A stretch of 64,000 bases of DNA from Octopus vulgaris (taxonomy: Eukaryota). Positions 42,141-43,705 of the stretch are shown here, one piece after another; position 1 is the first letter of the stretch, and each line of letters opens with the position of its first letter. Below the pieces are notes generated by a model, which was given only the letters and a program-made list of their open reading frames with translations, did no database searches and was not told the DNA's origin. A program made the position numbers and the translations under genes. The stretch covers positions 92,442,001 through 92,506,000 of the forward strand of contig OX597815.1 of the NCBI GenBank assembly GCA_951406725.2, in the 5' to 3' direction.

Positions 42141-42757
42141 ATAATCTTTATCAACCATTTGTTTTGCACATATTTTTCCCTGGTAGCATGGTTTTGATGA
42201 ATATATTATTGGAGAATTGTTTTACACCTGAATGTTTTTCCTGTTGCTAACCCTTACATGGTTTTCAAGTACGTCCACACTGTAAAGTTGTTGGTATTCG
42301 GAAGGGCATCCAGCTGTAAAAACCTTGCCAAAATTCACCTTGCCTGTGCTTGTGCCATGTAAGAAGCACTAAGTCCACTCTGCTGAGTGAGTGGTATTAG
42401 GAAGGGCATTCAGCTGTAAAAATCTTGCCAAAACAGTCACAGAAGTTTGGTGCAGGCTTTGGCCTGGCCAGCTTTTGTGTATCTGTCCCACTCAGGGTAG
42501 CATGAAAGATGGATGTTAAATGATGATACATTTTTGAAAGCACAAAACCTGCTTGTAATCAGTTTACAAGGAAACAGTGTCGCTGCTTGTAGCTGAGCAA
42601 TTTGCAAAGCACAAATATAAGCACACACACGTGTGTGTGTGTGTGTGCATGTGTTATCAGTTTCTTTCATTTCATGTCTACTAGATCCTCTTACAAGTCT
42701 TTGGGACTTCAGTAGAAAACATTGTCTCCGAAATTATGTTGAGAAGCAAACTTCTTA

Positions 42758-43527
42758 CAGTTCTATATTTAAGAGAGTAGGAATTATGTACATTATTTAC
42801 ATCCGACGGATATTCATCCTCATCTTGTTTGTTGTTAACACAATGTTTCGGCTGATATACCCTCCAGCCTTCTTCAGGTGTCTTGGCGAAATTTCGAACC
42901 CGTTTTCTCATTCCTAAGGTTTTATTATTATTATTATTGTTGTTGGTGTTCAGGTCACTGCTTGGAATCGAGCTCTTAACCACTACGCCATATGCCCGTG
43001 GGCAATTTTTTTTTTTTTTTTTTTTTTTTTTGTTTCTTCTTTAACCTTGTTTATAATAATAATAATGAAATTATTGTATACAGTGCTCAGGTGCACCACA
43101 ATTATGGAGTGAATTTTTGGGCTTATAAATCTAATATTTCTCTATCCTTGCTTAATACCGATATATATATGTGTGTGTGTATGATATGTATTGTGTGTAC
43201 ATTAATACATGATACACTCTATAATTCTATATATAATATCCAAGGAAGGATAGAAAAATATTAGATTTATAAGCCCTAAAATTCACTCCATGAGTGCCCA
43301 TGGGCATATGGCGTAGTGGTTAAGAGCACGAGCTACTAACTCCAAGATTCTGAGTTCGATTCCAAGCAGTGACCTGAACACTAATAATAATAATAATATC
43401 GAAAAATACCTTACGAATGAGAACCCAGGTTTGAAATTTCCCCTAGACACCTGAAGAAGGCTGGAGGGTATATCAGCTGAAACGTGTTAACAACAAAGAT
43501 GACAAATATCTGTTAAATGTAAATAAC
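42758..43527. mobile_element. composite palindromic insertion: two inverted tRNA-headed elements with hammerhead-like tails, 15-bp TSD
   Basis: GAAGCAAACTTCTTA at 42743-42757 and 43528-43542; arms 42758-43004 (-) and 43295-43527 (+) are reverse complements; A box TGGCGTAGTGG, B box GAGTTCGATTCC. Confidence 0.75.
42837..42882 (-). ncRNA. minimal type I hammerhead ribozyme-like motif (degenerate); sister copy 43446-43488 (+)
   Basis: GACAC-CUGAAGA-A-GGCUG(10-nt loop)CAGCC-GAA-ACAU-U-GUGUU; stems I and II pair. Confidence 0.55.
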
Positions 43528-43705
43528 GAAGCAAACTTCTTAGACATGCAGCCATGTCATTGCCCCCCATAACAAGATCTTTATTAATTGAACTACATTA
43601 GCAATTGTTGTTTATCTACTTCAATTCTCTTTTCAAACTGTTTGCTATCTTCTATCAAATTTTAGTTATGTAGTGTTTTATGTATATTATTTTTTTCTTT
43701 TTCAG

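What the first reader, a model, noticed from the sequence alone, without database searches (positions are those of the whole stretch)
42743..43542. TSD-bounded head-to-head palindrome of two tRNA-headed, hammerhead-tailed elements
Seen: a perfect 15-bp direct repeat (GAAGCAAACTTCTTA, 42743-57 and 43528-42) brackets two ~240-bp copies of one element with their 3' ends pointing outward. The heads meet at TGCCC(G/A)TGGGCA, a self-complementary 12-mer present twice (42993-43004, 43295-43306). Removing the 290-bp middle and one 12-mer gives the palindrome CACTACGCCATATGCCCA|TGGGCATATGGCGTAGTG. Established: ordinary LINE-mobilised SINEs insert as single units with one 3' end at a TSD; Penelope-like elements (PLEs) often show inverted arrangements. 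Inference: the mobile unit is an inverted dimer, made either by priming from both nicks of a staggered cut or by fold-back synthesis on the palindromic head. It would be a PLE-dependent, Pol III-type non-autonomous element with its own insertion mode.
Basis: partly seen in the sequence, partly recalled or inferred. Interest (0 to 1): 0.8.

Follow-up and report, generated by a model that had tools for sequence, protein, structure and literature searches.

The report
Inverted Penelope stub with tRNA-like module
The hairpin-shaped insertion is real and is likely the usual two-armed scar of a Penelope-like jumping gene in an octopus-like genome, but this very abundant family also carries a tRNA-like module inside its end repeat that may launch a short parasite of its own.

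Summary
The 15-bp direct repeat, the two outward-facing arms and the 12-mer are real. Public contigs span both outer junctions without mismatch. The reading of the middle is wrong: it is not an insertion into a head palindrome. Both arms continue 53-62 nt past their tRNA-like heads into a segment that is joined to the head in other family copies. Between them lie an 81-nt filler, part of it copied from DNA about 1.1 kb upstream of the insertion (30/30), and a 91-nt LINE-tail/poly(A) insert in the left arm. The left arm alone has a 35-nt tail, carries a minimal hammerhead, and holds an ORF start. Inverted arms, one-sided tail, TSD and a 5' palindrome are the published Penelope-like element (PLE) insertion pattern, so the insertion mode is known. 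I found no description of the A/B-box tRNA-like module inside the end repeat. In 12 of 15 listed joints from other loci, a truncated inverted arm meets a copy starting at that module, 7 within 2 nt of its +1. That suggests, but does not show, a Pol III (or RNase P) short transcript mobilised by a PLE. No full-length parent was recovered. Verdict: new variant of a known kind.

The parts
42743..42757 (+). Left copy of the 15-bp target-site duplication
   Evidence: D14; junction spanned with 0 differences in X1, X3, X4. Empty site not seen.
42758..42792 (-). 35-nt 'tail', present on the left arm only
   Evidence: Other copies end at 42756-58 (194-227 contigs per run at 42756) or at 42789 (75, 78 contigs), table 7.
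42759..42911 (-). Open frame of 51 codons from an ATG through hammerhead and tail; likely the PLE ORF start inside the pLTR
   Evidence: 103 short relatives, two named from Octopus; none reaches RT or endonuclease.
42837..42882 (-). Minimal type I hammerhead motif, left arm
   Evidence: Only match in 64 kb to the descriptor printed in the PMC4209133 supplement. Activity not tested.
42946..43004 (-). Left tRNA-like head (+1 at 42997, 28-nt internal deletion) and 12-nt palindrome 42993-43004
43008..43098 (-). 91-nt insert in the left arm: 3' end of a LINE-like repeat, about 21 nt of unrelated sequence and a poly(A); CAATT on both sides (43003-07, 43099-103)
   Evidence: 90% over 50 nt to window 4168-4217, the end of an RT-like ORF remnant; separate high-copy family.
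43099..43160 (-). Upstream continuation of the left arm; one frame is open to a stop; likely the end of the PLE ORF
   Evidence: (I2), tables 3 and 7. ORF identity inferred.
43161..43241 (.). 81-nt filler between the arms: TG/TA minisatellite-like part plus a 30-nt inverted copy of 41624-41653
   Evidence: 30/30; about 3e-11 expected within the surrounding 5 kb; 21/21 to 44242-62.
41624..41653 (-). Local template of part of the filler
   Evidence: no other match to its 260-nt context in the window.
43242..43294 (+). Upstream continuation of the right arm, stop codon at 43269-71
   Evidence: 11 of 32 listed contig pieces, from all four runs, cross 43294/5 with 31 or more letters on each side (table 8).
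43295..43378 (+). 12-nt palindrome (43295-43306) and tRNA-like module: +1 at 43302, A box 43309-19, B box 43354-62
   Evidence: family majority letters at 43328, 43331, 43341 complete 3-bp D and anticodon stems (table 3, pairing read by eye).
43446..43488 (+). Right hammerhead motif, damaged by a 3-nt loss behind 43483
   Evidence: table 4.
43379..43527 (+). Rest of the right arm: (AAT)n, ORF start at 43417 (with stops), end without tail
43528..43542 (+). Right copy of the 15-bp target-site duplication
   Evidence: X3 contig 43484-43878 with 0 differences.
43706..43837 (+). Host context: last coding exon of a BRI3-like gene, 163 nt downstream of the insertion
   Evidence: PF10164, E 7e-22. Intron location inferred from the splice acceptor; upstream exon not located.

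Best explanation
The locus is likely one insertion of two 5'-truncated 3' ends of a Penelope-like element, likely copied from both nicks of a 15-bp staggered cut and joined head to head through filler partly copied from neighbouring DNA. Steps: (1) the endonuclease nicks both strands 15 bp apart (inferred from the duplication). (2) Each 3'-OH primes reverse transcription on a PLE RNA, one at the distal and one at the proximal internal start site, which gives a 35-nt tail on one arm only (anatomy shown; biochemistry taken from the Anolis PLE). (3) Both cDNAs stop 53-62 nt upstream of the tRNA-like head, in what is likely the ORF end (extent shown; ORF identity inferred). (4) The two ends are bridged by 81 nt, of which 30 match DNA about 1.1 kb upstream of the insertion (match shown; repair by templated end joining inferred). 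(5) A LINE-tail/poly(A) piece entered the left arm, and small deletions followed (present; timing unknown). At other loci the two cDNAs likely anneal through the 12-nt palindrome, giving a perfect hairpin junction.
For: One-sided 35-nt tail and two family end points about 33 nt apart. Minimal hammerhead. ORF start inside the repeat. All of these, plus TSD, 5' palindrome and head-to-head order, are described for PLEs. The Anolis PLE cuts and extends both strands, starts at two internal sites that bound the tail, and is predicted to be a dimer. The upstream segment is joined to the head in 11 of 32 listed contig pieces. A sister-family protein hit, P0028, is compatible on the opposite strand with a recalled GIY-YIG motif: 1 of 206 proteins, 0 of 2000 shuffles. 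For two templates rather than one: the arms differ at 27 of 254 columns, while the TSD pair and the filler/source pair differ at 0 of 45 (Fisher p 0.01; 0.03 without CpG changes). Truncated inverted arms joined to a head occur at other loci (12 of 15 listed joints).
Against: No full-length PLE protein of this family was found. The ORF-end reading rests on about 20 codons and a recalled resemblance, and the GIY-YIG link is for a sister family. The age argument weakens to p 0.08 when the slippage-prone (AAT)n zone is also removed. Both arms share a minority letter (C at 43381 and its mirror position; about 90% of depth has A) and stop within about 8 nt of each other, which fits one template. No listed contig spans the inner junctions.
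Confidence: 0.7

Rival explanations
1. One cDNA was made, picked up the filler, folded back and copied itself (self-priming), so the arms were identical at insertion and diverged later.
For: The arms stop within about 8 nt of each other. The filler's ends are complementary over 5 nt (43160-64 with 43236-40). One minority letter is shared. PMC3846280 favours self-priming for PLE palindromes.
Against: 27/254 arm differences against 0/45 in the TSD and filler pairs. Junctions elsewhere are asymmetric, with a short inverted arm against a long direct arm (table 5). Fold-back alone does not explain a tail on one arm.
Confidence: 0.15
2. The family is wholly non-autonomous: a retrozyme-like or SINE-like unit of 330 nt or more that borrows PLE enzymes, and the upstream segment is not an ORF end.
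For: No long protein was found. Depth upstream of the head is only 0.06-0.35 of that over the head. Retrozymes are proposed PLE derivatives.
Against: Loose ends before 43242 agree at 0.77-0.82 in 58-73 contigs, so the element goes on further. That stretch is open in the frame that stops at 43269-71. The ATG-started frame stays open through the tail. No tandem array occurs here.
Confidence: 0.1
3. One reading: a fixed palindromic dimer of Pol III elements inserted, and the 290-bp middle entered later and duplicated the 12-mer.
For: Perfect palindromic head junctions exist at other loci (97 and 101 contigs).
Against: About 115 nt of the middle are the arms' own continuation, joined to the head in other copies. 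A self-complementary 12-mer in each arm appears as a direct repeat without any duplication.
Confidence: 0.03
4. Two independent insertions, or recombination between two copies, happen to lie inside a chance 15-mer repeat; or the middle is misassembled.
For: The family is very abundant, and the inner junctions were not seen in contigs.
Against: A given 15-mer at a fixed place has p about 2e-9 and occurs only twice in the window. No other copy of the family's arms was found in the window. Both outer junctions are spanned exactly. Tail asymmetry and filler fit one event.
Confidence: 0.02

Closest known systems
Insertion units of endonuclease-bearing Penelope-like elements (Arkhipova 2013 PMC3846280; Craig 2021 PMC8557442; Frangieh 2024 PMC11167929)
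   Same: Inverted 5'-truncated copy, TSD, 30-40-nt tail on one end, ORF start and hammerhead in the pLTR, palindrome at the pLTR 5' end, head-to-head order, unrelated DNA between pLTRs.
   Different: The TSD is 15 bp here against 8-10 bp in the rotifer examples. The pLTR carries an A/B-box tRNA-like module, not mentioned in the passages read. The filler is traceable to local DNA. The parent ORF was not recovered.
Minimal hammerheads of metazoan PLEs (Cervera and de la Pena 2014, PMC4209133)
   Same: The left arm meets their descriptor. They report pairs 100-700 bp apart on opposite strands in Schistosoma; here the cores are 574 bp apart.
   Different: No octopus entry in the supplementary PDF searched (the second file could not be searched). 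The right motif is damaged.
Schistosoma SINE-like hammerhead elements (Sm-alpha type; seen only through the review PMC6765202)
   Same: Pol III-type promoter followed by a hammerhead in a short, abundant repeat.
   Different: Described as tandem repeats freed by the ribozyme. No PLE-type inverted insertion or tail is given in the passages read.
Animal non-LTR retrozymes (PMC7229834; bioRxiv 10.64898/2026.07.22.740005)
   Same: Short, hammerhead-bearing, related to PLE pLTRs.
   Different: Defined as head-to-tail tandem repeats; this locus is head to head and has a tRNA-like module.
Helenus and Ajax, small-RNA-derived non-autonomous LTR retrotransposons (PMC10886601; abstract start and a term search only)
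   Same: A small-RNA-gene-like sequence inside the terminal repeat of a retroelement that is not LINE-dependent.
   Different: LTR partners; the text has no mention of Penelope.
Octopus tRNA-derived SINEs of Ohshima and Okada 1994 (paper not seen)
   Same: Abundant tRNA-derived repeats of octopus.
   Different: OR2 is listed as a CORE SINE. The other two families could not be compared, so this repeat may already be catalogued under a SINE or Penelope name.

Membership tests
EN+ Penelope-like element | ORF with PLE reverse transcriptase and GIY-YIG endonuclease | tested here: inconclusive
   None found for this family. Opposite-strand compatibility with a recalled GIY-YIG motif in sister-family hit P0028.
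EN+ Penelope-like element | Hammerhead motif in the pLTR | tested here: met
   with the descriptor; left arm only.
EN+ Penelope-like element | 30-40-nt tail at one end; two 3' end points | tested here: met
   table 7 (ends at 42756-58 and 42789).
EN+ Penelope-like element | Inverted 5'-truncated copy within a TSD | tested here: met
   Empty site not seen.
EN+ Penelope-like element | pLTR includes the first codons of the ORF | tested here: inconclusive
   51 open codons from an ATG through the tail; continuation into RT not shown.
tRNA-derived SINE | tRNA-related head with A and B boxes | tested here: inconclusive
   Box pattern met; stems complete with family majority letters; no Rfam or ARAGORN call.
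tRNA-derived SINE | Copies begin at the head | tested here: not met
   Both arms at this locus run 53-62 nt upstream. In the family, 12 of 15 listed joints do start at the head.
tRNA-derived SINE | Pol III transcription | not testable with these tools
   No raw RNA reads were available.
tRNA-derived SINE | Single unit with a LINE-type 3' tail at the TSD | tested here: not met
   Two inverted arms with PLE-type ends.
Non-LTR retrozyme | Head-to-tail tandem units, each with a hammerhead | tested here: not met
   Head-to-head pair at this locus. Not tested genome-wide.
Non-LTR retrozyme | Self-cleavage and circular RNA | not testable with these tools
   Needs RNA data or an assay.

The most novel reading that the evidence does not exclude
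An octopus PLE has a tRNA-derived Pol III promoter built into its pseudo-LTR. It launches an approximately 270-nt RNA (head, hammerhead, both RT start sites) that the element's own enzyme has pasted in at the order of ten thousand copies: a SINE born inside its autonomous partner and mobilised by a PLE rather than a LINE. The 12-nt palindrome at the +1 would let two cDNAs anneal and close the insertion.
Probability: 0.4. Interest if true: 0.6.

Novelty: new variant of a known kind. Interest (0 to 1): 0.35.

Why it matters
The insertion shape is known, so the locus alone is ordinary. Two things are of use. First, if the tRNA-like module drives the short copies, part of what is annotated as SINE in octopus (11.6% SINE and 6.83% PLE in O. 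vulgaris, PMC13282606) would be PLE-mobilised, and PLEs would join LINEs and LTR elements as carriers of tRNA-headed parasites. Second, a family of this size allows a direct genomic test of an open question in PLE biology, two cDNAs versus fold-back, by comparing the two arms of young dimers. The locally templated filler points to host end-joining as the step that closes the insertion.

Tried and rejected
No whole genome is held, so dimers and monomers could not be counted. Exact-pattern scans found nothing in metagenome, viral or genome contigs. Protein-based scans gave one locus each: L001 lies in a bacterial-type ORF and L002 is a 12-residue match; both are taken as chance, L002 not examined further. 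Rfam gave no tRNA or hammerhead call. ARAGORN called nothing at 80% and above on the head, while at 80% it sites across the window, so relaxed calls were not used. Folding z-scores were unremarkable. The phage blastn and ESM Atlas were uninformative. No RNA holder listed; this is no evidence on expression. No empty-site joint is among the 15 of 399 joints shown, no listed piece spans the inner junctions, and the tool skipped 42914-43044: no conclusion drawn. The top share of words was 0.66; not used as evidence of polymorphism. Searches for a long parent protein failed (weak evidence by the tool's own note). Short motifs of this element were not found in the PMC8557442 supplement, whose long protein lines are cut. 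My first idea that this is octopus OR2 was dropped because OR2 is a CORE SINE. Literature searches for a tRNA-bearing PLE pLTR or PLE-mobilised SINE showed none in their listings; most listed papers were not opened. Repbase, Dfam, Ohshima and Okada 1994, Albertin 2015, the SINEBase tables and the bioRxiv supplements were not available and may bear on novelty. Earlier-scan look-ups by sequence and place returned nothing.

Full report
1. Observation. The 15-bp direct repeat is at 42743-57 and 43528-42 and occurs nowhere else in the window. Inside it lie two inverted arms with 3' ends outward. Public contigs of three runs (X1, X3, and X4, which has a different organism label) cross the left junction with no mismatch, and one contig of X3 crosses the right junction (table 8; 32 of about 119,000 pieces listed). 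No listed piece crosses the inner junctions, and part of that region was skipped by the tool. The site lies 163 nt before the last coding exon of a BRI3-like gene. Translations of the repeat are annotated in Octopus sinensis and O. bimaculoides, so the window is likely octopus.

2. It holds a second inverted pair, 43099-43153 and 43242-43296 (I2). One search shows that this is the arms' own continuation. Of 32 listed pieces, 11, from all four runs and each with 13-20 differences (so other loci), run from this segment into the tRNA-like head with 31 or more letters on each side. At 43292 and 43294 about 99% of depth has the letters that make the right segment match the left one. Loose ends before 43242 agree at 0.77-0.82 in 58-73 contigs, so the element continues further upstream. 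One frame of the segment is open to a stop at 43269-71, and the loose-end consensus is open in the same frame (read by eye). It resembles the end of a PLE endonuclease domain, but that resemblance is recalled, not tested. The left arm is interrupted at 43008-43098 by a poly(A)-tailed piece of a LINE-like 3' end, with CAATT on both sides. Between the arms lie 81 nt. Thirty of them are an exact inverted copy of 41624-41653 (about 3e-11 expected), and 21 match the minisatellite at 44242-62 (low complexity, weaker). The 12-mer appears twice because it is self-complementary and each arm has it.

3. Marks of a Penelope-like element. Only the left arm carries a 35-nt extension. Other copies end either at 42756-58 or at 42789 (table 7). 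In a sister family, 97 of 132 protein hits include the matching tail and 35 stop before it (rough pattern count). The left arm meets the minimal-hammerhead descriptor of PMC4209133 (supplement passage): the only match in 64 kb, none in 30 random sequences. The right arm has lost 3 nt and fails. A frame from the ATG at 42911 stays open for 51 codons through hammerhead and tail. It has 103 short relatives, none with an RT or endonuclease family. One, P0028, is compatible on its opposite strand with a recalled GIY-YIG motif (1 of 206 proteins, 0 of 2000 shuffles). That ties the sister family, not yet this one, to a PLE endonuclease. Searches for a long parent failed.

4. What is in print. PMC3846280 (passages) describes inverted pLTRs inside 8-10-bp TSDs, a 31-bp tail on one of them, ORF starts in the pLTR, 18- and 38-bp palindromes at pLTR 5' ends, head-to-head as the commonest order, and unrelated DNA between solo pLTRs. 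PMC8557442 (passages; supplement searches) gives the same as general PLE features. PMC4209133 (parts 1-2 of 4) reports opposite-strand hammerhead pairs 100-700 bp apart. PMC11167929 (parts 1-2 of 4) shows a PLE protein cutting and extending both strands from two internal RNA sites that bound the tail, with a predicted dimer. Also seen: bioRxiv 10.64898/2026.07.22.740005 (parts 1-3 of 5); PMC13282606 (part 1 of 3 and supplement passages); passages of PMC6765202, PMC8969392, PMC7229834, PMC10886601, PMC4758252, PMC5804259, PMC3531059 and PMC8967140. Ohshima and Okada 1994 and Ferbeyre 1998 were not seen, only cited.

5. Mechanism. I favour two cDNAs primed from the two nicks, joined by host repair with locally templated filler. 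The arms differ at 27 of 254 columns, while sequence pairs copied at the moment of insertion (TSD, filler and source) differ at 0 of 45: p 0.01, 0.03 without CpG changes, 0.08 without the (AAT)n zone too. This is a lean towards templates that already differed. Against it, the arms share one minority letter and stop within about 8 nt of each other, which fits one RNA read twice or a fold-back. At other loci the junction is often asymmetric: among the 15 of 399 joints shown, 12 join an inverted arm stopped at one of 10 positions to a copy starting at 43295-43315.

6. What remains unusual. Between stop and ATG sits a module with A and B boxes at tRNA spacing (3 of 60 random windows). Its D and anticodon stems are complete with the family's majority letters at 43328, 43331 and 43341, but Rfam and ARAGORN do not call it. 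Counting from the A box puts +1 at 43302, and 7 of the 15 listed joints start at 43302-43304. Summed depth over the head is roughly 17,000-39,000 times that of the single-copy junction contigs in X1, X3 and X4, and upstream depth is 0.06-0.35 of head depth. The tool warns that summed depth is no copy number, and depth also falls gradually towards the 5' end as ordinary truncation would give. So a Pol III transcript is a lead; RNase P-type cutting or RT stalling at the palindrome would give similar 5' ends. Nine searches listed no paper describing a tRNA-like module in a PLE pLTR, but repeat databases were not available. The nearest cases are the Schistosoma Pol III hammerhead repeats and Helenus/Ajax. 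Unchecked notes of this scan report PLE fold-back stubs and tRNA-bearing PLE-type elements in other animals; they are leads, not support.

7. Verdict. Real feature, known insertion architecture, one undescribed-looking module. New variant of a known kind; interest 0.35. The boldest reading, a SINE built into its PLE partner, has probability about 0.4 and would merit about 0.6.

Noticed in passing
P0104: An annotated Octopus sinensis protein isoform (LOC115224785 X2) begins with about 36 residues of this element's ORF start and then continues as an unrelated cysteine-rich, membrane-type protein; possible use of the pLTR as a first exon, or an annotation artefact.
   Followed up: partly
window 42756-42759 and 42789-42792; table 7: Both family end points finish in the same four letters on the element strand, and the longer end overlaps the last two bases of the TSD, hinting at short homology at the priming site.
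   Followed up: no
P0002-P0007, P0003, P0019, P0029, P0086: A sister family, mostly from ENA assemblies, forms short head-to-tail repeats of the hammerhead-plus-tail unit; 5 hits read antisense then sense, as inverted junctions would.
   Followed up: partly
window 43008-43098: Poly(A)-tailed retrocopy of a LINE-like 3' end with about 21 nt of unrelated sequence before the poly(A) and a 5-nt flanking repeat; possibly a 3' transduction or the end of a host transcript.
   Followed up: partly
window 21267-21675, 25777-26167, 37488-37902, 14155-14444: Another dispersed repeat family of about 390 bp at 77-88% identity, with further partial copies; probably a SINE.
   Followed up: no
window 60282-60661: Tandem duplication of 190 bp at 98% identity.
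   Followed up: no
window 44022-45760: 23-bp minisatellite followed by a long TA/TG-rich array, about 200 nt after the BRI3-like exon; likely source of part of the filler.
   Followed up: partly
window 9074-9466, 15147-15494, 16216-17218, 24482-26781, 3669-4145: Several decayed ORF fragments that look like LINE-type retrotransposon remnants by eye.
   Followed up: no
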